A DNA stretch of 64,000 nucleotides from Candidatus Methanomethylicia archaeon (GCA_038727515.1 JAVYVS010000002.1:224001-288000); one strand, 5' to 3'; shown: positions 46,118 through 64,000, counted from the stretch's first letter. The notes: generated by a model from the sequence alone, not told the origin. A program made the numbers and translations.

Positions 46118-46918
46118 ATGAACCAACTATTTGTAGAGCAAATACTATTTACGGGTCGTGGAAGCAGTTTAGTTATACTAATACTACTGATAGCATTCTT
46201 CTTCATAGGGCTACAGCTTGCAAAGATGGGTAGACCCCCCAAAATGAGGCGTTTACCAGCTTTAGATGCTATTGATGAAGCTATTGGTAGATGTGCAGAA
46301 ATGGGCAAACCAGCACTATTCACACCAGGACTTACTGGAGATTTATATACTGAGCAAGGTCCTCAAATGGTTTCATCAATAACTATTTTAAGTTATATTG
46401 CTGAAGGATGCGCAAAATACGATGTTCCATTAATCATTGATATGTGTGCAGGTGATGCAATACCACTCATGGATGAAACTCTTAGACTTGCATATTTAAA
46501 GCAAGGTAAACCCGAGAAGTATGATCCCAAAATGATAAACTATTATCCAGGACAGTCTCCAATGGTAACTGGAATACTTGGACATTTACAGCGTCTACGC
46601 CCAGCAGCATTCTTCATGCTTGGAGGATTATATTATGAGAGTGTTGTGATAGGTGAAGCTGCAAATATGGTTGGATCTATGAACATTGGAGGTACAGTAA
46701 ATACCCACCAATTACCATTCATTATAGCAACTTGTGATTATGTATTGATTGGTGAAGAGTTCTATGCTGCAAGCACATACTTATCAAAAGATCCATATCA
46801 AATTGCAACGATAGCTGGTGAAGACTGGATAAAATTCATTTTAATAGCATTGTCTTTGCTAGGATTCATACTAGAACCACTAGGTATTAAAGTGATAAGT
46901 AATTTCTTGAGGTGGTGA
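46118..46918 (+). CDS. DUF6754-like membrane-anchored protein (module A, gene 1)
   Basis: N-terminal TM, RRLPALDAIDEAIGRCAEMGKP, GPQ, GTVNTHQLPF, DYVLIGEEFYAA..YLSKDP, C-terminal TM. Family name is from recall. Confidence 0.75.
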   Translation: MNQLFVEQILFTGRGSSLVILILLIAFFFIGLQLAKMGRPPKMRRLPALDAIDEAIGRCAEMGKPALFTPGLTGDLYTEQGPQMVSSITILSYIAEGCAKYDVPLIIDMCAGDAIPLMDETLRLAYLKQGKPEKYDPKMINYYPGQSPMVTGILGHLQRLRPAAFFMLGGLYYESVVIGEAANMVGSMNIGGTVNTHQLPFIIATCDYVLIGEEFYAASTYLSKDPYQIATIAGEDWIKFILIALSLLGFILEPLGIKVISNFLRW

Positions 46919-47586
46919 TGGTTATGGGTATGTCAGTTTTAAGAAGACCTGAAGTATTCATGTTTATTTCTGGTTTAGTTATGGGTTTAACCCTTTTTGG
47001 TTACTTCTTTAATGTACCACCAGTAATAGATACTGTAAATTGGCTTCAGACATTTGCAGTTCATATAAGTTATTTCGCTACATGGCTTGGATTCTTAACT
47101 GCTGCAAGAATTCACATAACCAATATTCAACGTAAAACTCCTGGCATATGGTATTTCAGCATAATAATGTTTATATTTGCACTTGTCCCATTCTTTGCAG
47201 CTTTACCAGAAATAACAAAACCATCTGTTACCACAATGATATATACGTGGCCCTTCAATTGGGTTTATACACCATTAGGTGCAGCGCTATACGCAACAAC
47301 TGGATTCTACATATTCTCAGCAGCTTACAGAGCATTTAGAGCTAGAAGTTTTGAAGCAGCAGTATTACTGATTGCTGGTTGTCTCGTTATGCTTGGTAAT
47401 GCACCAATAGGTGAACTTATTTGGAGTCAAATACCTACAATTAATGAATGGCTTCAATTAACTGGACAAACTCCTGCTATGCGTGCTTTAAATATTACTG
47501 CAGCTCTAGGTGTAGTTTACTTTGGATTAAGAGTTGTACTTGGTGCTGAGAAGAGGGTGATCACACTTGGTGCTGGAGGTGGATAG
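46912..47586 (+). CDS. Multi-pass membrane protein (module A, gene 2)
   Basis: About 6 TM; FYIFSAAYRAFRARSFEA, GNAPIG; paralog of 62757..63410. Confidence 0.85.
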   Translation: MVMVMGMSVLRRPEVFMFISGLVMGLTLFGYFFNVPPVIDTVNWLQTFAVHISYFATWLGFLTAARIHITNIQRKTPGIWYFSIIMFIFALVPFFAALPEITKPSVTTMIYTWPFNWVYTPLGAALYATTGFYIFSAAYRAFRARSFEAAVLLIAGCLVMLGNAPIGELIWSQIPTINEWLQLTGQTPAMRALNITAALGVVYFGLRVVLGAEKRVITLGAGGG

Positions 47587-47588
47587 AA

Positions 47589-48455
47589 ATGGGTGAATCT
47601 CAATCCATATGGGTAAAGCTGGGTGCTGTAGATAAACGTATACTATATTGGATATTATTTATATCATTGGCAATACCATACATACGTCCAATAGGATTGC
47701 CAGTATCAATTGCTGAAACGAGCTATGCTTTATACAATTTCATAGAAAAACTAGGTCCAAATGATGTTGCAGTTATGGCAATAGAATTTGGTGTTAGCGC
47801 TTGGTCTGAATGTTTACCTGGATTTGTAGCGGTTTCAAAGCATTTAGTGATGCGTGGTGTTAAGATAATATACTGGTGTGTTGGCTATACCGATTGTGAC
47901 TTAACTATGGAGGCTGTTAAAGCTAGAATTCCACAGCTTAAGGGTCCCGGCGAACCTGCAGGTCCCGGAGATTATAAGTATGGTGTTGATTGGGTTTATA
48001 TGGGTTATATTGCTGGTGGTGAAACTACTGTGGCTCAATTGGCTGATGATATACGTCAAGTTCTTAGAGCTGATAAATATGGTACTCCAATAGATCAAAT
48101 ACCATTATTCCAAAATGTTAGGAATGCAAATGATATTAAGATTGTTATAGATTCTACAACTGGAGATTATGGTGATTACTATGTTAGGCAGTGGAGGATT
48201 CGATATGGAACTGCTGTTGCTGAAATAGGTATAGCTATGAACTATTCAACGTTCATGGCATACTATCAAGCTGGATTAGCTGTAGGTGCATTGAAAGGTA
48301 TTAGAGGAGCTGCTGAATATGAGAAGTTAATAGGACAATTAGGTGAAGCAACAACAAGTTTAGATGCACTTAATGTTTCACATCTACTTGTAATAATCGC
48401 AATTATAATGGCTAATTTAAGTTATGTAATGACTAGACGTAGAGGTGGTGGGTGA
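47589..48455 (+). CDS. Membrane-anchored alpha/beta-domain protein (module A, gene 3)
   Basis: N- and C-terminal TM; PIGLPVSI, KYGVDWV.MGY..GGET, GIRGAAEYE; paralog of 63413..>64000. Confidence 0.85.
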   Translation: MGESQSIWVKLGAVDKRILYWILFISLAIPYIRPIGLPVSIAETSYALYNFIEKLGPNDVAVMAIEFGVSAWSECLPGFVAVSKHLVMRGVKIIYWCVGYTDCDLTMEAVKARIPQLKGPGEPAGPGDYKYGVDWVYMGYIAGGETTVAQLADDIRQVLRADKYGTPIDQIPLFQNVRNANDIKIVIDSTTGDYGDYYVRQWRIRYGTAVAEIGIAMNYSTFMAYYQAGLAVGALKGIRGAAEYEKLIGQLGEATTSLDALNVSHLLVIIAIIMANLSYVMTRRRGGG

Positions 48456-49096
48456 TGCCCTATCCAACAAATCCCGCTGATATAATTGGAGCTTGGGTTG
48501 GAGCATTCCTAACTTTAGCCATTTATAGCTATATCCTTTACAAAGAAACAAGAGTGTATAGGTTAGCTGAGTACATATATATTGGTATAGCCTTTGCTGT
48601 TTCATTAACTATCTCCGTTCAGCAGATTTGGAATCAAATAATAGTGCGTATACTTGGTGGCCAATACATTTACATTATTGGTGTAATATTGGGGTTAATG
48701 CTATTAACACTACCATTCAAAAGTATACGTTGGATAAGCAGGTATCCAGTAATCTTCCTAATGGGATTAGGATTCGGCGTTACCATTAGAGGTGCACTTA
48801 CCGCCAATATTGTTGGTCAGATAAGAGGTTCAATAACTCCACCTGGAGCTACTGCTACGATTCTTGATTGGTTTAACTTTGCATGGATATGCCTTGGAAC
48901 GTTACTCATAATATCATATTTCACATTTACAGTTGAACACACTGGATGGTATTATTACCCAACGAAACTTGGCAGATATATACTGTTACTTGGTTTAGGC
49001 GCATACTATGGTAATACTGTGCAATTCAGAATGACCATGCTTGCAGGCAGAGTTCAATTCTTATTACAAGTGTTCAAAATAATTCCATGGCCGTAA
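48452..49096 (+). CDS. Multi-pass membrane protein (module A, gene 4)
   Basis: About 5-6 TM; TLAIYS.ILYKE, AEYIYIG, YFTFT, GAYYGNTV..RM..L.GR. Confidence 0.85.
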   Translation: MMPYPTNPADIIGAWVGAFLTLAIYSYILYKETRVYRLAEYIYIGIAFAVSLTISVQQIWNQIIVRILGGQYIYIIGVILGLMLLTLPFKSIRWISRYPVIFLMGLGFGVTIRGALTANIVGQIRGSITPPGATATILDWFNFAWICLGTLLIISYFTFTVEHTGWYYYPTKLGRYILLLGLGAYYGNTVQFRMTMLAGRVQFLLQVFKIIPWP

Positions 49097-50961: not shown

Positions 50962-51820
50962 AATGGAATATATAATTTATCCCGGATGTTTAAGTGTTAC
51001 TGAGCAATATTCATATGAAGTTTCATGTATAAACGTTTTGAATCATTTAGGTGTAGATTTTACTTATGCTGAAAATGTTAATTGTTGCGGTTTTCCTCTT
51101 AGAAGTTTAAATTCCTTTGGATGGATATACTTATCTGCACGTTTAATTTCTGTTTTAGAAGATTACAATAAACCTTGCATACTGCTTTGTAATTGGTGTC
51201 ACGCATCATTAACATATGCATTGAAAATTCTTAGTGAAAATGAAGAATTAACCTCTTGGGTTAACGATCTTTTATCAAAGGAGGATTTGAGATTTAATGG
51301 TAAACTTGTATTCAAACATTTATTGGGATTCTTATATTACGATATTGGAATTGAGAAGTTGAAATCGAATATTAAGAGGTTTATGGGAGGTTTAAAATTC
51401 TCTATACATCCTGGATGTCTATTCTTTAGACCTAGAGATATTGATAGACCTGATAACCCATATGAACCTAGAATTCTTAAAGATCTCGTTGAATTATTGG
51501 GTGCTGAAGCTAATGTACATTTAGACTGTTGTGGATGGGCTATTTACAAAACTAATAGTGATACTGGTTTAACTTTAGCTGGAAATAGAATTAAGACTGC
51601 TTATGGTACTGATGGAATAATTATATCGTGTCCTCATGGCGGTGAAATGTTGGATAAATATTATAATGATGCATGTAAAACCATTGGATTTAATGGTGAA
51701 GTTCCAGTATTATACTACACTCAGCTATTGGGTTTAGCCCTTGGAATTGACCCTAAGAATCTAGCTTTAAACCTAAATAAATCCCCAGTAAAATCACTAT
51801 TAGATAAGATTGGTGTTTGA
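50954..51820 (+). CDS. hdrB: Heterodisulfide reductase subunit B-like (CCG domains)
   Basis: YPGC..NCCG..LCNWC; HPGC..DCCG..SCPHG; PVLYYTQLLGLALG. Confidence 0.9.
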   Translation: MFKMEYIIYPGCLSVTEQYSYEVSCINVLNHLGVDFTYAENVNCCGFPLRSLNSFGWIYLSARLISVLEDYNKPCILLCNWCHASLTYALKILSENEELTSWVNDLLSKEDLRFNGKLVFKHLLGFLYYDIGIEKLKSNIKRFMGGLKFSIHPGCLFFRPRDIDRPDNPYEPRILKDLVELLGAEANVHLDCCGWAIYKTNSDTGLTLAGNRIKTAYGTDGIIISCPHGGEMLDKYYNDACKTIGFNGEVPVLYYTQLLGLALGIDPKNLALNLNKSPVKSLLDKIGV

Positions 51821-53050
51821 TTTAGGTAATGGAACTATTGTGGAAGCATTATATACGACTTTAACTTCAGCATCTTTACCCTTAACTCTTATTGCTTCAT
51901 TTATTGCTTCCTCTAAATCGTAGAATGCCCTTATTCCAATATCTTCTAAAACTTCCTTCCTAAGTGAAGTTACAGCCCATACATCTGTCCTCATAAATGT
52001 TTCTAACATTTTCGCAGCTTTATGATATCCAAGTTTATAATTCCTCCTTATATGTTCTAATGTACTCTCTACATCTTTATTTTCCCTACTCTTTAGTAAT
52101 AAATCGTAGAAGTTTCTTGGACCTATACCATCCCTACATTCAGCCACTAATATTATTATTCCACCATCCTTCACCACTAATTTCGAATGTTCTATTGCTT
52201 TTTGTGCTTGATATAATGATATATCAAATGGATTATTTGCTACTGCAACTACTATATCCCCCTTTCCATGGGATTCAACTATAAATATCTCATTGGCTTT
52301 TTCTACACTTTCCATGAAACTTGTTTTTATATTACCAGTCTTTATTGATGCTAATTCTCCATTAGCATCTAGAACCATCATTATTGAATATATATCTTCA
52401 ATCCTACCTAGTACTTCTAATGCATCCATCATATCTTCATGAACTGGATTTCCATTCAATTTCAATAATGTTGCATTTGAATCTAATGCGAATCTATGAT
52501 TGTATTCTATTGTTCCGTAACTTGATAATCCTGGAAGTAGAAATTTCCTTCCTCCAGTATACCCTGCGAAATAATGTGGTTCAACTGATCCTATAACTAT
52601 GATTTTATCAGCTTCCAATAATCTTTTATCAATGTATACTCTATTTCCACGTTTTGTTTCTCCAATATATTCATGTTCTTCAACTTTCTTTGCATCATGT
52701 ATTACAGTTCTATACCTATAATAATCATATTTATTTCCCAATATCCACTTTAATTCTTCTTCAGTTGGAGATCTATGAGCTCCTGTAGCTACAATTATCT
52801 TAACCTCTTTATCTTTAATCTTTTCATGTATTTTATTAAGTATTTTTGATGTGGGTGTTGGTCTTTCTTGATCATTCACCACCAATAAGATTTTTCCCTT
52901 ATCGTATATGAAATCTTCAATTTCCCTATCTATTGATACATTTACATCCCCTGTAATAGCTTTCTTCAAATTTAATGTTTCAATTGAGATTTCACTTGGT
53001 ACTTTACATTTTATAATCCTTTTATTTCCATATGGAATTTCTATGATCAC
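51800..53050 (-). CDS. larA: Nickel-pincer-dependent lactate racemase family (LarA)
   Basis: IPYG, VND.ERPTP, ATGAHR, PHYFAGYTGGRK..LPG, NPVHEDM, LYQAQKA, AEC.DG.G. Confidence 0.92.
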   Translation of the reverse strand: MIIEIPYGNKRIIKCKVPSEISIETLNLKKAITGDVNVSIDREIEDFIYDKGKILLVVNDQERPTPTSKILNKIHEKIKDKEVKIIVATGAHRSPTEEELKWILGNKYDYYRYRTVIHDAKKVEEHEYIGETKRGNRVYIDKRLLEADKIIVIGSVEPHYFAGYTGGRKFLLPGLSSYGTIEYNHRFALDSNATLLKLNGNPVHEDMMDALEVLGRIEDIYSIMMVLDANGELASIKTGNIKTSFMESVEKANEIFIVESHGKGDIVVAVANNPFDISLYQAQKAIEHSKLVVKDGGIIILVAECRDGIGPRNFYDLLLKSRENKDVESTLEHIRRNYKLGYHKAAKMLETFMRTDVWAVTSLRKEVLEDIGIRAFYDLEEAINEAIRVKGKDAEVKVVYNASTIVPLPKSNTNLI

Positions 53051-58148: not shown

Positions 58149-59906
58149 TTAGCCTTTTTTTATCCAACAATCATAGATTTTTCTCTCAAACTTAACTATA
58201 ACATGTTTATAATTCTTTTTGAATTCTAATCCATTTTTCTCCAATTCATTTAATATCTTCTTATATCTATCATGTAATTCTTTAAGTGCTTCTATTGCTT
58301 CTTCTAGTGTTGCTTCTTTAAATTTAATTTTTGTTTTTGGTTCACATTGTGAAAAAATGTTTAAGTCTGGTTCTATTATTTTACCTATTACAGCATATCC
58401 TCCTGTAGTTTGTGCATCAGCCATTAATACTATTGGATTTCCATCCCCTGGAATTTGTATTGCACCTGGAAGTGTTCCACAACTTATTAATCTTCCAACA
58501 CCTTTAATTTTTGCTTCAATATCTTTCTCCAACCTATAACCCATTCTATTTATGTTGCTTGTAACTGTGAATTTTGTATTTGTGAAATCTTTAATCATTT
58601 CCTCCGTGAAGTATTGGAGGTGTGGTCCTAATAAAATTCTAAATTCATTTTTCCTTTCTCTTTTCCAGTTTATTCTTCTTGCTGGACATGTTTCTATTAT
58701 TTCGTTAAACATATTTTTAGATGTAGTTATTATTGCATTTTTGGTTAGTTCTCTTCCAATTCCAGCAGTTAGATAATGTGATCTACTTCCAAGAATTATA
58801 GGTTCATTTATTCCTCCAGCTATGGAAATATATGATATTAACCCATCTACTATTCTATTAATTTTAATCTTGCTCCCCTTCCTAACTGGTATGGCTCTCC
58901 AAGTTTCAATTTCTTCTCCATCAATTTCCCCCTCCACATTAGCTCCACAAATAGATATTATTATATCTTGTAAAACTGTAGCTTCAAAATTGCTTTGAAA
59001 TATTTCTATACATGCACAATCAATATTGTTTCCAACAAGTATATTTGATGTTATAAATGATTCTTTATCCATAGCTCCAGATACTGGAACACCATACTTC
59101 CTATAACCTTCTCTACCAAGATCTTGTATTGATACACCTGGACCTGCTACATCAACCTTTAATACTGGTTCCCCTTCAATACTCAATGAAGTTTTAGGAG
59201 GTTCTTTTCTTAAAATTTCATCATATACCTCTCTACTTATTGGTTTGAATTTCACATAATCTCCAATTTTGAATATTGTGGGTGGATCTCTATTTGGATC
59301 GAATAATTTTATTGGCGTTCTCCCTATGATTCTCCATCCTCCTGGGCTTTCAAATGGATATATTCCTGTTTGTGTTCCAGCTATTCCTACAGAACCTGCA
59401 GGTACCTTTATCCTTGGATTTTCCAATCTTGGTACAGCTATTTTTTCAGGGACTTCACCCATATATGGGAATCCTGGTATAAATCCAACCATATAAACTC
59501 TGTATACTTGTTCTGAATGTATTTTAATGATTTCTTCAGGTTTTAGTTTAGTTATCTTTGATATCTCTTCTAAATCTAAACCTACATCATAATCATATAA
59601 TGTTGGTATCTCTATTATATTTCGTATTTCTTCTTCAACTATTTCTCTCTCAATTATATTCCCATATACTTCTAGAATTTTCTCTTCTAATTTTTTCCTA
59701 TCTGTATTAAGTGGGTCTATTATGATTAGTATTGTTGTGTAAGCTGGTATTATCTCTTTAATACCGTAATCCCCCTTTAATTTCTCTATTTCATCACTAA
59801 GCATTTTTACCATAGTGTTTATTCTCTTATTTATTTCATTGCCAATTTCTATGAATACTCCATTTTCCCCCATGTGCTGCAAATTTATTTTGCGATTAAA
59901 AAGCAT
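58149..59906 (-). CDS. Fused PxpB-PxpC (KipI/KipA; urea-carboxylase CT-like) protein
   Basis: PxpB: IPAY.T, GFIPGFPY, PR...PR..VPAGSVGIAG.QTGIYP..SPGGW.IIGRTP. PxpC: IQDLGR.G...GVP.SGAMD, NRMGYRL, GAIQIP..G.PIVLMADAQTTGGY. Confidence 0.92.
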   Translation of the reverse strand: MLFNRKINLQHMGENGVFIEIGNEINKRINTMVKMLSDEIEKLKGDYGIKEIIPAYTTILIIIDPLNTDRKKLEEKILEVYGNIIEREIVEEEIRNIIEIPTLYDYDVGLDLEEISKITKLKPEEIIKIHSEQVYRVYMVGFIPGFPYMGEVPEKIAVPRLENPRIKVPAGSVGIAGTQTGIYPFESPGGWRIIGRTPIKLFDPNRDPPTIFKIGDYVKFKPISREVYDEILRKEPPKTSLSIEGEPVLKVDVAGPGVSIQDLGREGYRKYGVPVSGAMDKESFITSNILVGNNIDCACIEIFQSNFEATVLQDIIISICGANVEGEIDGEEIETWRAIPVRKGSKIKINRIVDGLISYISIAGGINEPIILGSRSHYLTAGIGRELTKNAIITTSKNMFNEIIETCPARRINWKRERKNEFRILLGPHLQYFTEEMIKDFTNTKFTVTSNINRMGYRLEKDIEAKIKGVGRLISCGTLPGAIQIPGDGNPIVLMADAQTTGGYAVIGKIIEPDLNIFSQCEPKTKIKFKEATLEEAIEALKELHDRYKKILNELEKNGLEFKKNYKHVIVKFERKIYDCWIKKG

Positions 59907-59980
59907 TCGTATGGCACCTATTCAGAATCTATAAATCTATATATTAGTAGGTTAATCTTAAAAATTGTGAGTGTAATGCT

Positions 59981-60463
59981 ATGATATCTAATGTTAAGAG
60001 TTTTATTGCCGCAGTTATTGCTCTATATAATTATTTATTAGATTGTGGTTTAAGTAATATTCCTGAAGTCACATTATCCTCTGGAGATGATAAGTATACT
60101 TTTACTGATGTTTCTCTGAGAAATAATATTCTAAATTTTAAGTTTAATGGTAAAGATTATTTTGTGAATTTTAGTGATAACGAAATTGAATTTTCTACTG
60201 TTAAGCATGTTTTTGAAGAAGTTGAAAAGGAGGTTGAAGATTTTTTCATAGTTAAGTCTACGGTTTCCGGTAGGGTTATTAATGTTTTTGTCAATGAGGG
60301 AGATAATGTTAAAGAAAATGATTTACTATTGAAAATTGAAGCTATGAAAATGGAAATTGATATTAAATCCCCTGTGAATGGTGTTGTAGATAGAATCTTT
60401 ATTTCTAAGGATATGGAGGTTAAATTGGGTTCACCATTAATCTCCATAAGGGTTTATAGGTGA
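59981..60463 (+). CDS. Stand-alone biotin carboxyl carrier protein
   Basis: EAMKM biotinylation motif, V.EGD.V, I.SPVNG.V; N-terminal FIAAVIAL helix and FKFNGKDYFV hairpin. Confidence 0.9.
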   Translation: MISNVKSFIAAVIALYNYLLDCGLSNIPEVTLSSGDDKYTFTDVSLRNNILNFKFNGKDYFVNFSDNEIEFSTVKHVFEEVEKEVEDFFIVKSTVSGRVINVFVNEGDNVKENDLLLKIEAMKMEIDIKSPVNGVVDRIFISKDMEVKLGSPLISIRVYR

Positions 60464-60470
60464 GGATTTC

Positions 60471-61877
60471 ATGGTTGAAATTGTGGATTTAACTTTAAGG
60501 GATGCTCATCAATCTCTACTTGCCACTAGATTTAGAACTGAAGATATGCTTCCAATACTTGATGTTATGGATGAAATAGGGTTTTATTCTATGGAGGTTT
60601 GGGGTGGTGCAACTTTTGATGCACCATTAAGATACTTAAATGAAGACCCGTGGATTAGACTTAAACTTATTAGAGAGAGAATTAAGAAGACTAAACTTCA
60701 AATGCTTCTAAGAGGTCAAAACCTCGTTGGCTATCGCCATTATCCAGATGACATATGCATAAAGTTTGTGGAAAAAGCTTATGATAATGGTATCGATATA
60801 TTCCGGATTTTTGATGCATTAAATGATTTAAGGAATGTTATGATAACTGCTAAGACAGCTAAGAAAATTGGAGCTGAAGTTCAATTATGCATGGTATATA
60901 CTATAAGCCCAATACATACAGTAGATTATTACATTAATTTAGCTAAGGAAATAGCATCTATGGATGTTGATTCCATATGTATAAAGGATATGTCTGGAAT
61001 ATTGAAGCCATATACTGCATATGAGATTGTTAGAAGGATTAAAAGCGAAATTAATATTCCGGTGAATGTGCACTCACATACTACTGCAGGTTTAGCTCCA
61101 ATAACATTAATTAAATCTGTTGAAGCTGGAGCAGACTACATAGACTGTACGCTATCCTCAATGTCCATGTATACGTCACATTCACCATTAGAATCCATTG
61201 CATTATGTCTAGAAGATACACCGTATAAAGTTAAGATAAATTTAAATCTAGCTTTAAAAGCATCAAAATATTTCTGGGAGAAGAGGAAGAAGTATAGTGA
61301 ATACGATTATGCTTTAAAAAATCCTCCAGTGGATGTAAGTGTATTGGAGCATCAGATTCCTGGAGGTATGCTTAGCAATTTATTAGAACAATTAAGAATG
61401 CAAGGTGCAGAAGATAAATTAGATGAAGTTTTAAAGGAGGTTCCAAAGGTTAGAAGAGATTTGGGATATCCACCACTAGTAACACCATTATCACAAATAG
61501 TTGGAACACAAGCAGTAATAAATGTTCTATCGGGGAAATCATACTCAATAGTAATAAAGGAAGTAAAAGATTATGTTAAAGGATTATATGGTAAACCTCC
61601 AGGTGAAATAGACCCAGAAATTGCAAAAATGGTTTTAGGAGATGAAAAGCCTATAAACGTAAGACCTGCAGAACTATTAGAACCAGCATATCAAAAAATA
61701 GTTTCAGAAATTCCAAAGGAATTTATTGAAAAAGAGGAAGATTACATAACATATGCATTATTCCCAGATATAGCAATAAAATACTTTAAATTAAGAAGAG
61801 AAGCAAAAATCAAAATTCCTAAGACATATGAAATAATAATCGGAAATAAAACATTTAATGTATCACTAGAAAAGTAA
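60471..61877 (+). CDS. Pyruvate/oxaloacetate carboxyltransferase (OadA/PycB/transcarboxylase 5S-like), lacking a biotinyl domain
   Basis: DLTLRDAHQSL, EVWGGATFD, QMLLRGQNLVGY, IKDMSG, HSH, HQIPGGM.SN, GYPPLVTP.SQIVG; no MKM motif at the C-terminus. Confidence 0.93.
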   Translation: MVEIVDLTLRDAHQSLLATRFRTEDMLPILDVMDEIGFYSMEVWGGATFDAPLRYLNEDPWIRLKLIRERIKKTKLQMLLRGQNLVGYRHYPDDICIKFVEKAYDNGIDIFRIFDALNDLRNVMITAKTAKKIGAEVQLCMVYTISPIHTVDYYINLAKEIASMDVDSICIKDMSGILKPYTAYEIVRRIKSEINIPVNVHSHTTAGLAPITLIKSVEAGADYIDCTLSSMSMYTSHSPLESIALCLEDTPYKVKINLNLALKASKYFWEKRKKYSEYDYALKNPPVDVSVLEHQIPGGMLSNLLEQLRMQGAEDKLDEVLKEVPKVRRDLGYPPLVTPLSQIVGTQAVINVLSGKSYSIVIKEVKDYVKGLYGKPPGEIDPEIAKMVLGDEKPINVRPAELLEPAYQKIVSEIPKEFIEKEEDYITYALFPDIAIKYFKLRREAKIKIPKTYEIIIGNKTFNVSLEK

Positions 61878-61942: not shown

Positions 61943-62752
61943 ATGCTATCCTATCCATTATATCTATCACAAATTCTAAAGTCTGGTAGAGTTAGTGGAC
62001 TCGTTTTCTTATTGATAATAGCAATATCCGCAGCATACTTCATTAGGCGTGGTAAAGCTGGTAAGGTTCCATATATTAGGAGAGTTTCTGGTCTCGATGC
62101 TATTGATGAAGCTATTGGAAGAGCCACTGAGATGGGACGTCCAGTATTTTGTTCGCATGGTATAGCAAGTATAGCTGATGCAACTTATGGTCCACAAACC
62201 ATCGCCGGTCTCTCAGTATTAGGTTATGTAGCTCAATTATGTGCTAAGTATGGTACTAGGCTAATAGTTCCAATTAGACAAGTTGCAGTTTATCCTATTG
62301 CCAGAGAAATCGTTGAAAACGCATATAGAGCTGAAGGTAAATTAGATCAATTTAGAGTTGAAGACCTTGTATACCTCTCAGGTTGGCAGTTTGGTTACTC
62401 TCTTGGTTATATGAGTTTAATGCAGAGGGAGAAGGCTGGTGCAAATATCATGATCGGTGGGTATTGGGCTGAATCATTGCAGTTGGCGGAGGTTGGGTAT
62501 ATGGTTGGTGCTATGCAGGTTAGTGGAACAGCAAACACACACCAAATACCATTCTTCGTAGTAGCAACAGACTACTGCCTAATAGGAGAAGAAATCTTTG
62601 CAGCAGGAGCATACCTAAGCAAAGACCCAGCAATGATAGGAAGCATAGTAGCACAAGACATAGGAAAATTTATCTCTGTAGCTCTCATAGTTATAAGTTT
62701 CATTCTTCTGCTTGGTGGCTCTAAATTTATTGTAGACTTGTTGAGGTGGTAG
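61943..62752 (+). CDS. DUF6754-like membrane-anchored protein (module B, gene 1)
   Basis: IRRVSGLDAIDEAIGRATEMGRP, YGPQ, GTANTHQIPF, DYCLIGEEIFAA.AYLSKDP; paralog of 46118..46918. Confidence 0.78.
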   Translation: MLSYPLYLSQILKSGRVSGLVFLLIIAISAAYFIRRGKAGKVPYIRRVSGLDAIDEAIGRATEMGRPVFCSHGIASIADATYGPQTIAGLSVLGYVAQLCAKYGTRLIVPIRQVAVYPIAREIVENAYRAEGKLDQFRVEDLVYLSGWQFGYSLGYMSLMQREKAGANIMIGGYWAESLQLAEVGYMVGAMQVSGTANTHQIPFFVVATDYCLIGEEIFAAGAYLSKDPAMIGSIVAQDIGKFISVALIVISFILLLGGSKFIVDLLRW

Positions 62753-62756
62753 ATGT

Positions 62757-63410
62757 ATGTCTTGGCTTAAACGTGTTGAAATTCCAATAGCAATAACAAT
62801 TATATGCGCACTAATACAAATAGTACCATACTTTATTAGCATGGGTGTTGATGTAGAGAATTTCCAAAGTAAATTTGTAAGTTGGAGTTTGGTTGTGGGT
62901 ACTGGTGCATTAATGGTTGGTGCAATTTCTCTACTATTAATACATGTTCCAAAAATTACCCATCGACGTCAATACTGGGAGTATAGTCTACTTTTAATGG
63001 TTTTCATGTTTATTATGGCATTACTTGGTTTACCAATTTCAGAAATTGGTTTAGGCTTAACGAATTATTGGTTTACTTTCCTATATAATAATGTTTTAAC
63101 GCCTCTTTCATCTAGCATGTATGCTATAATTGCATTCTATATTACTTCTGCGGCTTATAGAGCTTTTAAAGCTAGATCTTTAGAGGCTGGATTATTATTG
63201 TTGGCTGGAAGTATACTGGTGTTTAGAAATGCTCCATTAGGAACATTCTTAATACCTGCTTCAGCGGATATAGGCGATTGGATATTCAACATACCAAATA
63301 TGGCTGTGAATAGAGCTATAATGATTGGTGGTGGGCTTGGAGCTATGATTCTTGGAATTAGAACCTTAATGGGTTATGAGAGAGGTTACTTAAGAGGTGG
63401 AGGTGAATAA
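62757..63410 (+). CDS. Multi-pass membrane protein (module B, gene 2)
   Basis: FYITSAAYRAFKARSLEA, RNAPLG; paralog of 46912..47586. Confidence 0.85.
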   Translation: MSWLKRVEIPIAITIICALIQIVPYFISMGVDVENFQSKFVSWSLVVGTGALMVGAISLLLIHVPKITHRRQYWEYSLLLMVFMFIMALLGLPISEIGLGLTNYWFTFLYNNVLTPLSSSMYAIIAFYITSAAYRAFKARSLEAGLLLLAGSILVFRNAPLGTFLIPASADIGDWIFNIPNMAVNRAIMIGGGLGAMILGIRTLMGYERGYLRGGGE

Positions 63411-63412
63411 AT

Positions 63413-64000
63413 ATGGGTAGTAACGTAAGCTTGTGGGAAAAGCTTGAAAATATTGATGTTAGGATAATATATTTAATATTGTGGATAGTAATTCTATGGC
63501 CCTTTATATACCCCATAGGTCTACCAGTAAGTATAGGTTCTTATGCTATATCGTATGCTAAGACCATCGATGAATTACCACCAGGTTCTATGGTTGTAGT
63601 ATCCTTTGACTTCAGTCTTGGCGGCCTTGGAGAATTATATCCAATAGTTGTTGCTACCATGCACCACCTATTCACTAAACCCATTAAGATTGCTATTATC
63701 GCCATATGGGTTGACGGTCCCATAGTGGCTAATATGGTGTTAAATGAGTTGAAACCTGAAAATCCTCCATATAATAAGAAGTACGGTGTGGATTGGATTT
63801 TCCTCGGATACGTGCCTGGTGGGGAAACTGCCATGGCTGCTTTAGGCAGAGACTTCTGGAATACACTTCCATTAGATTACATTTACAAGAAACCTGTTAG
63901 TGAATATCCAATAATGCAAAAATTAAGGTCTGCAGCAGATGTAAATTTACTTGTAAGTTTTGAAACTGGTACTCCTGGAGCTGATGAATGGGTTAGGCAA
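63413..64000 (+). CDS. Membrane-anchored protein (module B, gene 3), 3'-truncated by window edge; not in ORF track
   Basis: Manual translation MGSNVSLWEKLENIDVRIIYLILWIVILWPFIYPIGLPVSIG...KYGVDWIFLGYVPGGET...EWVRQ; GGAGGTG SD; paralog of 47589..48455. Confidence 0.88.
   Translation, partial: MGSNVSLWEKLENIDVRIIYLILWIVILWPFIYPIGLPVSIGSYAISYAKTIDELPPGSMVVVSFDFSLGGLGELYPIVVATMHHLFTKPIKIAIIAIWVDGPIVANMVLNELKPENPPYNKKYGVDWIFLGYVPGGETAMAALGRDFWNTLPLDYIYKKPVSEYPIMQKLRSAADVNLLVSFETGTPGADEWVRQ

What the first reader, a model, noticed from the sequence alone, without database searches (positions are those of the whole stretch)
58149..61877. Candidate novel ATP-independent transcarboxylase: PxpBC fusion + free BCCP + OadA-type carboxyltransferase sharing a putative assembly hairpin
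Seen in sequence: a PxpB-PxpC fusion is divergently transcribed (74-nt spacer) from BCCP and an OadA/PycB CT gene. No pxpA/lamB or biotin carboxylase is in the window. All three proteins carry a similar short beta-hairpin-like segment: PxpBC C-tail YKHVIVKFERKIYDCWIKK, CT C-tail TYEIIIGNKTFNVSLEK, BCCP LNFKFNGKDYFVNFS. BCCP also begins with a small-residue helix (SFIAAVIALYNYL). Established: PxpB/C are homologous to the urea-carboxylase carboxyltransferase domains. The Propionibacterium transcarboxylase couples a PycB-like 5S subunit to a second CT via a free biotinyl 1.3S subunit whose N-terminus is a K.TVNG..Y.V.V strand pair. OadG/BT/PT domains assemble beta-strands around an AVIAAA-type helix. 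Inference: the three proteins may assemble and shuttle CO2 between oxaloacetate/pyruvate and an N-substrate (urea/guanidine/oxoproline-like) without ATP. I do not know this combination to have been described.
Basis: partly seen in the sequence, partly recalled or inferred. Interest (0 to 1): 0.8.

Follow-up and report, generated by a model that had tools for sequence, protein, structure and literature searches.

The report
Oxaloacetate-fed biotin lactam-opening enzyme
Hot-spring archaea (Culexarchaeia) that lack every known partner for their oxaloacetate carboxyltransferase keep it, and their only biotin carrier, beside the PxpBC genes of a pyroglutamate-opening enzyme, which suggests an undescribed enzyme that opens a lactam ring using oxaloacetate instead of ATP.

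Summary
The three genes are real and intact. The divergent pxpBC / BCCP-CT arrangement is conserved in all 9 genomes of this order (Culexarchaeia) that hold the CT gene. pxpA is present elsewhere, but sits directly upstream of the biotin ligase birA in 10 of 10 genomes. Biotin carboxylase, OadB and acyl-CoA carboxyltransferase were found in none of 12 genomes, whereas five other carboxylase-less, CT-bearing archaea tested all have a known partner. The BCCP looks like an OadG-BCCP fusion that lost its membrane anchor. A 2026 cryo-EM study shows mycobacterial PxpBC holding a BCCP-bound biotin.

Best reading (about 0.55): oxaloacetate carboxylates biotin, PxpBC N-carboxylates a lactam (probably 5-oxoproline), and PxpA hydrolyses it, without ATP. 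The chemistry is inferred, and the literature calls PxpABC ATP-dependent.

The hairpin claim is only partly met. The CT tail matches the carrier motif and the BCCP hairpin scores positive; the PxpBC tail is conserved but does not match. The complex prediction gave weak support (0.60, best control 0.00). Urea or guanidine is unlikely as substrate. First-stage readers noted this locus in two other genomes.

The parts
58149..59906 (-). pxpB-pxpC fusion, 585 aa (PxpB/CT_C_D residues 8-211; PxpC/CT_A_B about 249-551); proposed lactam N-carboxyltransferase
   Evidence: Pfam PF02682 E 7e-70 and PF02626 E 4e-73; TIGR00370 and TIGR00724 over cut-off; closest solved relatives PH0987, TTHA0988, KipI, YbgK/YbgJ
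58158..58223 (-). conserved C-terminal tail of PxpBC (residues 562-583), candidate docking hairpin
   Evidence: 5 invariant columns in 10 orthologues; does not match the canonical carrier hairpin PSSM; weak complex support 0.60 vs control 0.00
59907..59980 (.). 74-nt AT-rich divergent spacer with TATA-like stretches; about 58-110 nt in relatives
   Evidence: promoter function not tested (the sigma-70 scan does not cover archaea)
59981..60463 (+). the genome's only biotin carrier protein, 160 aa: OadG-like soluble assembly domain plus biotinyl domain
   Evidence: PF00364 E 2e-17; single hit in the genome; orthologue aligns over its length with an OadG-BCCP fusion of an oadB locus, 35%, E 5e-23
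59987..60202 (+). BCCP N-terminal domain: small-residue helix (3-22) plus five strands (26-74), PT/BT-like half barrel
   Evidence: AlphaFold2 pLDDT 88.7; VIA Z 5.0, tied at the top, with PT of pyruvate carboxylase (2qf7, 4jx4) and BT of ACC (5csa), inconclusive on its own; hhalign to the OadG-BCCP fusion probability 79%, E 1.6e-5
60338..60352 (+). biotinylation motif EAMKM (Lys123)
   Evidence: E, M and K invariant in 9 orthologues
60471..61877 (+). OadA/PycB/5S-type pyruvate-oxaloacetate carboxyltransferase, 468 aa, catalytic motifs intact, no biotinyl domain
   Evidence: PRK09282 713 bits over cut-off; E 3e-139 to 5KS8 beta, 3e-131 to transcarboxylase 5S, 4e-131 to OadA 2NX9; RDAHQS, WGGATFD, KDM, HSH and PLVTP present
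61824..61868 (+). C-terminal beta-hairpin of the CT (residues 452-466), canonical carrier-type assembly hairpin
   Evidence: PSSM 16 bits for the 98%-identical cluster representative P0121, rank 1 of 454, tail-shuffle p 0.0005; also present in the oadB-linked outgroup P0141
61943..64000 (+). DUF6754 four-gene membrane cassette (continues past the window), co-oriented and conserved behind the CT; membership in the system uncertain (candidate transporter)
   Evidence: PF20539; DUF6754 follows the CT in all relatives; 8 copies in the genome beside unrelated genes

Best explanation
An oxaloacetate-driven, ATP-free, biotin-dependent lactam hydrolase: a transcarboxylase whose second half is PxpBC. 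(1) BirA, encoded beside pxpA on contig C1, biotinylates BCCP Lys123 [gene content shown; reaction established for the family]. (2) The OadA-type CT moves the carboxyl of oxaloacetate to biotin and releases pyruvate [established for the family; motifs intact here]. (3) The carrier swings to PxpBC, which passes the carboxyl to the ring nitrogen of a lactam, most likely 5-oxoproline (pyroglutamate) [inferred from the urea carboxylase CT fold and from the biotin-bound mycobacterial PxpBC structure]. (4) The metal-dependent PxpA hydrolyses the activated N-carboxy-lactam, and the carbamate falls apart to glutamate and CO2 [inferred; same logic as urea carboxylase plus allophanate hydrolase]. Net: oxaloacetate + 5-oxoproline + H2O -> pyruvate + glutamate + CO2, roughly -20 kJ/mol. 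The CT tail, and possibly the PxpBC tail, dock on the BCCP helix to form a BT-like barrel [inferred; weak model support]. The module probably derives from a Na+-pump decarboxylase that lost OadB and the OadG anchor [inferred].
For: Divergent pxpBC / BCCP-CT order in own genome and 8/8 relatives with the CT, over 3 families, at CT identities of 69-83%. pxpA directly followed by birA in 10/10. Biotin carboxylase 0/12, OadB 0/12, Carboxyl_trans 0/12; the only weak carboxylase hit is CarB. One biotinyl domain in the genome. Five other BC-less, CT-bearing Thermoproteota all have an acyl-CoA CT, two also OadB, so among the lineages tested this order alone has a CT with no known partner. All 15 pxpA genomes in a 251-genome phylum sample have BC or an OadA-type CT, against 100 of the other 236 (kin are not independent, about 3-5 lineages). 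pxpB-pxpC-pxpA-BCCP-BC operon in G190; pxpA next to a PxpB-PxpC-BCCP fusion, P0083; S. aureus pxpBCA-accBC operon (PMC11315280). Mycobacterial PxpC/PxpB bind BCCP with biotin 'positioned to participate in a carboxylation reaction' (PMC13012033). Keq 0.035 for ring opening (PMC13274462) = +8 kJ/mol, so a driving reaction is needed. Pyroglutamyl peptidase present, HyuB-type oxoprolinase not found; Culexarchaeia are predicted to grow near 85 C. Complex prediction for BCCP 1-84 + CT tail + PxpBC tail: weak support, 0.60 vs best control 0.00, runs agree in at least 96% of contacts, partner pLDDT at least 73. The mark was reached by 58 of 80 solved and 2 of 110 mismatched pairs, but at 0.60 or under by only 7 of the 80 and by both mismatches; it may reflect likeness to solved BT-like domains.
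Against: Published accounts describe PxpABC as an ATP-dependent enzyme in which PxpB/PxpC hydrolyse ATP or phosphorylate 5-oxoproline, with no biotin (PMC8453981; PMC13274462). The mycobacterial paper reads the BCCP binding as regulatory sequestration. pxpBC is divergent from, not co-transcribed with, BCCP-CT, and pxpA is on another contig. The PxpBC tail does not match the carrier hairpin motif, and similar tails occur in bacterial loci without adjacent biotin genes. No BioY was found in the order and no clear biotin synthase, so biotin supply is unexplained. No expression or biochemical data; the substrate is not identified.
Confidence: 0.55

Rival explanations
1. Two independent systems that merely share a promoter region: an ordinary ATP-dependent 5-oxoprolinase (PxpA + PxpBC), and a CT-BCCP pair that acts alone as a soluble oxaloacetate decarboxylase (carboxybiotin decays) or is a relic of a Na+ pump.
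For: Literature describes PxpABC as ATP-dependent and self-sufficient. The Pxp proteins here are canonical in sequence. The genes are divergent, not one operon. The BCCP retains the pump-derived OadG-like domain.
Against: Needs two separate coincidences, pxpBC beside BCCP-CT (9/9) and pxpA beside birA (10/10). The CT is 69-83% conserved and intact, not decaying. Wasting carboxybiotin through a three-gene biotin system is unusual (own knowledge). No Walker A motif in PxpA or PxpBC (weak evidence).
Confidence: 0.18
2. Same complex, but a different substrate or direction: PxpBC/PxpA handle another lactam or N-carboxy/carbamoyl compound, or PxpBC donates carboxyl to biotin so that the CT makes oxaloacetate from pyruvate (ATP-free anaplerosis).
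For: All genomic evidence for coupling applies equally. The substrate is not shown. In other archaea pxpA-pxpBC sit beside a DapB_N/DAP_DH_C-family dehydrogenase, hinting at other substrates. No pyruvate carboxylase exists in this order.
Against: With glutamate/5-oxoproline the reverse direction is uphill by about 20 kJ/mol (Keq plus own knowledge of oxaloacetate decarboxylation, about -30 kJ/mol). Urea/guanidine determinants are missing. PxpA/B/C pass the 5-oxoprolinase family cut-offs except the PxpC equivalog.
Confidence: 0.15
3. The downstream DUF6754 membrane cassette is an unrecognised decarboxylase or ion-pump subunit replacing OadB, so CT-BCCP-DUF6754 is a new ion-translocating oxaloacetate decarboxylase and PxpBC is a bystander or regulator (biotin sequestration as proposed in mycobacteria).
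For: The cassette is co-oriented and follows the CT in all order genomes. The CT and BCCP descend from pump-like ancestors. Regulatory binding of PxpBC to a carboxylase has been proposed.
Against: The genome has 8 DUF6754 cassettes beside unrelated genes but only one biotin carrier. No similarity of OadB to anything in the genome. The BCCP has lost its membrane anchor. It does not explain pxpA-birA.
Confidence: 0.12

Closest known systems
Transcarboxylase (methylmalonyl-CoA carboxyltransferase, EC 2.1.3.1; 5S/12S/1.3S) of Propionibacterium freudenreichii
   Same: ATP-free carboxyl shuttle between an oxaloacetate/pyruvate CT and a second CT through a free biotin carrier; the CT matches 5S at E 3e-131; no biotin carboxylase.
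   Different: No 12S (crotonase-fold acyl-CoA CT) in any of 12 genomes. The proposed second CT has the urea carboxylase (cyclophilin-like) fold and would accept an N-substrate. The carrier has an OadG-like helix plus five strands, unlike 1.3S.
Prokaryotic 5-oxoprolinase PxpABC (LamB/YcsF, KipI, KipA; Niehaus 2017)
   Same: All three components present and canonical.
   Different: pxpA is separated from pxpBC and coupled to birA; pxpBC is fused, tailed and paired with BCCP and an OadA-type CT. Described as ATP-dependent, whereas no biotin carboxylase is available here.
Urea carboxylase / urea amidolyase (EC 6.3.4.6; KlUC 3VA7, 5I8I)
   Same: PxpBC is homologous to its CT domain (E 3e-26). Same proposed logic: N-carboxylate an inert amide, then hydrolyse.
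   Different: No BC domain; urea-site loop D1321/Y1324 absent and N1330 is Q; carboxyl would come from oxaloacetate; the hydrolase is PxpA, not allophanate hydrolase.
Na+-translocating oxaloacetate decarboxylase OadABG (EC 7.2.4.2)
   Same: OadA-type CT (2NX9, E 4e-131); BCCP homologous to an OadG-BCCP fusion of an archaeal oadB locus whose CT is a close outgroup (65%).
   Different: No OadB in the order; the OadG transmembrane anchor is missing.
Mycobacterial LCC-MSMEG_0435/0436 complex (PDB 9YX5; PMC13012033)
   Same: Stand-alone PxpC/PxpB homologues bind a BCCP with the biotin in the PxpC site.
   Different: There the carboxybiotin source is an ATP-dependent carboxylase (AccA3), and the authors propose regulation; here no such carboxylase exists.
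Two-subunit pyruvate carboxylase PycAB (M. flagellatus 5KS8; archaeal PycAB)
   Same: Best sequence match of the CT (E 3e-139); subunits assemble by strands wrapped round a small-residue helix (BT-like domain, PMC5059739).
   Different: No PycA; the helix is on the carrier, not on a biotin carboxylase.

Membership tests
Transcarboxylase EC 2.1.3.1 | 5S-type pyruvate/oxaloacetate CT with intact metal and carbamylated-Lys site | tested here: met
   E 3e-131 to 1RQB; RDAHQS, KDM and HSH motifs present
Transcarboxylase EC 2.1.3.1 | 12S acyl-CoA carboxyltransferase (PF01039) | tested here: not met
   0 of 12 genomes of the order; tblastn with MmdA finds nothing
Transcarboxylase EC 2.1.3.1 | free biotin carrier, no biotin carboxylase | tested here: met
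Transcarboxylase EC 2.1.3.1 | ATP-independent carboxyl transfer between two CTs | not testable with these tools
   needs an enzyme assay
Prokaryotic 5-oxoprolinase PxpABC | pxpA, pxpB and pxpC all present in the genome | tested here: met
   PxpA C1:545156-545926 over the NF003814 cut-off; PxpB over TIGR00370; PxpC over TIGR00724 but below the NF045499 equivalog cut-off
Prokaryotic 5-oxoprolinase PxpABC | ATP-dependent conversion of 5-oxoproline to glutamate | not testable with these tools
   no assay; no Walker A motif, which does not exclude ATP binding
Urea/guanidine carboxylase | biotin carboxylase domain | tested here: not met
Urea/guanidine carboxylase | urea-site residues D1321, Y1324, N1330 (K. 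lactis numbering; their role from own knowledge) | tested here: not met
   D1321 falls in a 5-residue gap, Y1324 aligns to T, N1330 to Q as in E. coli YbgK; D1584 and K1605 not checked by alignment
Na+-translocating oxaloacetate decarboxylase OadABG | OadB membrane subunit (PF03977) | tested here: not met
   0 of 12
Na+-translocating oxaloacetate decarboxylase OadABG | membrane-anchored OadG | tested here: not met
   the BCCP aligns only to residues 61-228 of the L049 OadG-BCCP fusion, past its hydrophobic N-terminus
Pyruvate carboxylase PycAB | PycA biotin carboxylase | tested here: not met
   0 of 12 in the order versus 13 of 13 in sister family f5
BT/PT assembly domain | small-residue helix wrapped by an antiparallel sheet or barrel | tested here: inconclusive
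   helix + 5 strands predicted; Z 5.0, rmsd 3.0-4.3, 58-72 aligned to 2qf7, 4jx4 and 5csa, tied with unrelated folds; weak complex support

The most novel reading that the evidence does not exclude
Culexarchaeia have a transcarboxylase of a new kind, in which oxaloacetate supplies carboxybiotin to a urea-carboxylase-fold PxpBC that N-carboxylates pyroglutamate for PxpA, assembled through a three-chain BT-like barrel. It would also mean that PxpABC in general is a biotin-dependent lactam carboxylase/hydrolase that borrows carboxybiotin from whatever source the cell has, so its reported ATP dependence comes from a biotin carboxylase and not from PxpBC.
Probability: 0.4. Interest if true: 0.9.

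Novelty: new variant of a known kind. Interest (0 to 1): 0.74.

Why it matters
PxpABC is a widespread enzyme whose mechanism is still stated as an assumption: phosphorylation by PxpBC (PMC13274462), although these proteins have a carboxyltransferase fold. Most hosts carry an essential biotin carboxylase, which would mask any dependence on biotin. This order has PxpABC, one biotin carrier, one oxaloacetate CT and BirA, but no biotin carboxylase, so five proteins give a clean test of whether PxpABC works by N-carboxylation. If true, it adds a new kind of transcarboxylase with an N-acceptor, and an ATP-free way for energy-limited hyperthermophiles to recover glutamate from heat-formed pyroglutamate. 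It would also re-read the mycobacterial PxpBC-LCC complex and the S. aureus pxp-acc operon as catalytic.

Tried and rejected
Urea or guanidine as substrate: rejected on the missing urea carboxylase loop and residues and the reported lack of urea carboxylase activity in mycobacterial PxpBC.

Ordinary pyruvate carboxylase, Na+ pump or classical transcarboxylase: rejected on missing PycA, OadB and 12S in 12 genomes. Assembly gaps are an unlikely cause, since 7 genomes are at least 90% complete and at most 5% contaminated, and one is 99% complete.

'The tail occurs only with this synteny': rejected. Twelve bacterial PxpBC fusions carry a canonical hairpin tail, and the four tail-bearing loci inspected have pxpA but no BCCP, CT or BC within 7 kb; their whole genomes could not be searched.

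The same synteny outside the order: not found in the four closest outgroup CTs examined, in two other PxpBC fusion proteins or in six other pxpA-bearing Thermoproteota. The BCCP N-domain profile finds only six full-domain matches, all order-like, in 1.84 billion proteins.

Searches that led nowhere: the single-protein genome-contig scan was too stringent (1 locus). Niehaus 2017 and Fan 2012 are not held, so the original reconstitution conditions could not be checked. No paper in the library holds both 'transcarboxylase' and 'oxoprolinase' or 'DUF6754'. The sigma-70 scan was at chance level and does not apply to archaea. BioY was not found in the order.


Full report
1. Observation. 58149-59906 (-) is a 585-aa PxpB-PxpC fusion (PF02682 E 7e-70, PF02626 E 4e-73; over the cut-offs of TIGR00370 and TIGR00724). 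59981-60463 (+) is a 160-aa biotin carrier with EAMKM at 120-124. 60471-61877 (+) is a 468-aa OadA/PycB/5S-type carboxyltransferase (CT) without a biotinyl domain; its catalytic motifs are intact, and it matches 5KS8 beta, transcarboxylase 5S and OadA at E 1e-131 to 1e-139. The spacer is 74 nt, and BCCP and CT are 7 nt apart.

2. Organism. Orthologues carry the names GBS-70-058, GB-1867-005 and GB-1867-035. These are Culexarchaeia bins, predicted to grow near 85 C (bioRxiv 10.1101/2022.04.06.487207) and described as anaerobic peptide fermenters that can make oxaloacetate from aspartate. The searches of that paper found no mention of biotin or oxoprolinase. The partial CT of GBS-70-058 has the length and contig size of locus L013 from G005, which is in the same family as the window's genome.

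3. Genome content. The own assembly is 93.6% complete. It has pxpA at C1:545156-545926, followed after 2 nt by birA. It has one biotinyl domain only. No biotin carboxylase was found (PF02785, PF00289; the only tblastn hit is CarB), no OadB and no acyl-CoA carboxyltransferase. Pyroglutamyl peptidase is present, and the HyuB-type oxoprolinase was not found.

4. Conservation. Eight of 11 relatives in the order have the CT, at 69-83% identity; the three without are 45-74% complete. All eight show pxpBC divergent from BCCP-CT, followed by a DUF6754 cassette. pxpA is in 9 of 11, and in all 9 it lies directly upstream of birA. Biotin carboxylase, OadB and PF01039 are each 0 of 12. The sister family f5 instead has a BC-BCCP-MmdA cluster plus a CT and no pxpA. 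So both halves of the Pxp system are tied to biotin genes, at two separate loci, across three families. These genomes are kin and count as one evolutionary event; the force of the argument lies in retention over a long divergence, not in the number.

5. Comparison across the phylum. In a sample of 251 Thermoproteota, 15 have pxpA, 50 an OadA-type CT and 99 a biotin carboxylase; 115 have one or the other (my count from the two lists). All 15 pxpA genomes are among them, against 100 of the other 236. This is modest support, with about 3-5 lineages involved. One of them, G190, has a pxpB-pxpC-pxpA-BCCP-BC run. Seven genomes outside the order have a CT but no BC. The five tested all have an acyl-CoA CT, and two also have OadB. 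Among the lineages tested, only this order has a CT with none of its three known partners, and there PxpBC is its neighbour. Elsewhere, PxpB-PxpC-BCCP fusions are common among the homologues (nine of the top 120), and one inspected lies directly behind pxpA. S. aureus has pxpB, pxpC, pxpA, accB and accC in one operon (PMC11315280).

6. Structural precedent. A 2026 cryo-EM study found the mycobacterial PxpC/PxpB homologues bound to the long-chain acyl-CoA carboxylase, with a BCCP biotin held in PxpC and 'positioned to participate in a carboxylation reaction'. No urea carboxylase activity was detected, and the authors proposed regulation (PMC13012033). Against this, other papers state that PxpB/PxpC hydrolyse ATP or are assumed to phosphorylate 5-oxoproline (PMC8453981; PMC13274462). 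I could not read the original reconstitution paper.

7. Substrate. Aligned to K. lactis urea amidolyase, the PxpC half lacks the loop bearing D1321, has T for Y1324 and Q for N1330, like E. coli YbgK (the role of these residues is from my own knowledge). Urea or guanidine is therefore unlikely. PxpA is closest to P. horikoshii PH0986 (E 4e-88). 5-oxoproline is the default substrate, but it is not shown.

8. Origin of the carrier. AlphaFold2 gives a helix (3-22) and five strands ahead of the biotinyl domain. Three of the five best fold matches are PT or BT domains of biotin carboxylases, but at Z 5.0 and tied with unrelated folds. The close outgroup CT P0141 (65%) lies with oadB and a 240-aa OadG-BCCP fusion. 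The carrier of G007 aligns to that fusion from the helix to the biotinyl domain (35%, E 5e-23), and the N-domain profile matches it (probability 79%, E 1.6e-5); only the transmembrane segment is missing. The CT tree places the order as one clade (96/97) in an unresolved group with P0141 and other archaeal CTs, far from f5. Loss of OadB and the anchor, with recruitment of PxpBC, is the simplest history, but direction was not tested.

9. The hairpins. A PSSM from 31 hairpins of carriers and PycB linkers outside the order ranks the CT tail first in every orthologue (8-23 bits) and scores BCCP 50-64 at +7.5. The PxpBC tails of the order score -1 to -8, no better than shuffles, and hhalign finds no match to the CT tails. 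The tail is under selection, with five invariant residues. Twelve bacterial PxpBC fusions end in a canonical hairpin at the same place, which does match the CT tail (probability 91%), so the order's tail may be a diverged version (probability 7%). The bacterial loci inspected lack adjacent biotin genes. Folding BCCP 1-84 with the CT tail and the PxpBC tail gave weak support: 0.60 against a best control of 0.00, at least 96% agreement in contacts, partner pLDDT at least 73. The mark was reached by 58 of 80 solved and 2 of 110 mismatched pairs, but at 0.60 or under by only 7 of the 80 and by both mismatches, and solved BT-like domains may have been recalled. Precedent for such assembly is the BT-like domain of two-subunit pyruvate carboxylase (PMC5059739).

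10. Mechanism. Shown: gene content, linkage, intact motifs, absence of alternative partners. Established for the families: BirA biotinylates the carrier; the CT exchanges carboxyl between oxaloacetate and biotin. Inferred: PxpBC moves the carboxyl to the lactam nitrogen, PxpA hydrolyses the activated ring, and the carbamate decays. Ring opening has Keq about 0.035, or +8 kJ/mol; oxaloacetate decarboxylation gives about -30 kJ/mol (own knowledge). The forward sum is near -20 kJ/mol, and the reverse (anaplerotic) direction is disfavoured with this substrate. I put this reading at 0.55, independent systems at 0.18, another substrate or direction at 0.15, and a DUF6754-based pump or regulatory role at 0.12. 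The cassette has 8 copies beside unrelated genes, which suits a transporter family better than a dedicated pump subunit. Biotin supply is unexplained, as no BioY was found.

11. Novelty. The parts are known; I found no description of the combination in the held library, which lacks most subscription papers. It fails membership of EC 2.1.3.1, urea carboxylase, OadABG and PycAB on tested features, but would work like a transcarboxylase joined to a urea-amidolyase-type hydrolysis. First-stage readers of this scan noted the same locus in two other genomes, and other agents reported PxpABC with OadG-BCCP-OadB in marine Chloroflexota. These are untested leads and are not counted as evidence. Verdict: new variant of a known kind, interest 0.74.

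Noticed in passing
window 61943-64000 and 46118-49093; G000 C1 (six more copies): The genome has eight four-gene DUF6754 membrane cassettes. The copy behind the biotin genes has an 80%-identical paralogue at C1:157961-160988, about 2.3 kb from a lipoate-protein ligase-like gene. With no BioY in the order, this subfamily could be a cofactor (biotin/lipoate) or lactam importer. No paper in the library mentions DUF6754.
   Followed up: partly
P0048, P0059, P0070, P0078, P0085, P0086, P0090, P0091, P0093-P0095, P0100; L058-L061: Many bacterial PxpB-PxpC fusions end in a canonical biotin-carrier-type assembly hairpin although the four tail-bearing loci inspected have no biotin genes nearby; it may dock PxpBC onto a carboxylase or decarboxylase encoded elsewhere.
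   Followed up: partly
L105:7243-10028 (P0083); also P0069, P0079, P0080, P0098, P0101, P0106, P0107, P0109: PxpB-PxpC-BCCP triple fusions; the one inspected lies directly behind pxpA with no biotin carboxylase within 8 kb.
   Followed up: partly
L049:5599-9416: Archaeal oadB + OadG-BCCP fusion (membrane-anchored biotin carrier, 240 aa) + split OadA: an unusual Na+-pump architecture and a likely ancestor type of the locus studied.
   Followed up: partly
L055-L057, L062, L063, L065, L066: In Bathyarchaeia-like genomes pxpA-pxpBC are repeatedly preceded by a DapB_N/DAP_DH_C-family dehydrogenase gene, hinting at a substrate other than 5-oxoproline.
   Followed up: no
P0166, P0169, P0178 and relatives: Bathyarchaeial OadA-type CTs (about 514 aa) end in a small-residue helix plus an SPWVLAGRQ-like motif, reminiscent of acyl-CoA carboxylase epsilon subunits (own knowledge). 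G144 and G209 have CT, BCCP and acyl-CoA CT but no BC or OadB, which suggests a classical transcarboxylase in archaea, and both also have pxpA.
   Followed up: partly
L052, L053 (P0148-P0162): Archaeal OadA-type CTs of about 445-455 aa without the C-terminal hairpin and with no biotin gene nearby; in L053 a pxpA gene begins 7.9 kb downstream at the edge of the locus.
   Followed up: no
G000 C1:633999-634730: One DUF6754 copy shows an internal TAA in the family search (possible pseudogene or assembly error).
   Followed up: no
window 51800-53050: Lactate racemase (LarA) family gene downstream of ETF and HdrA-like genes.
   Followed up: no
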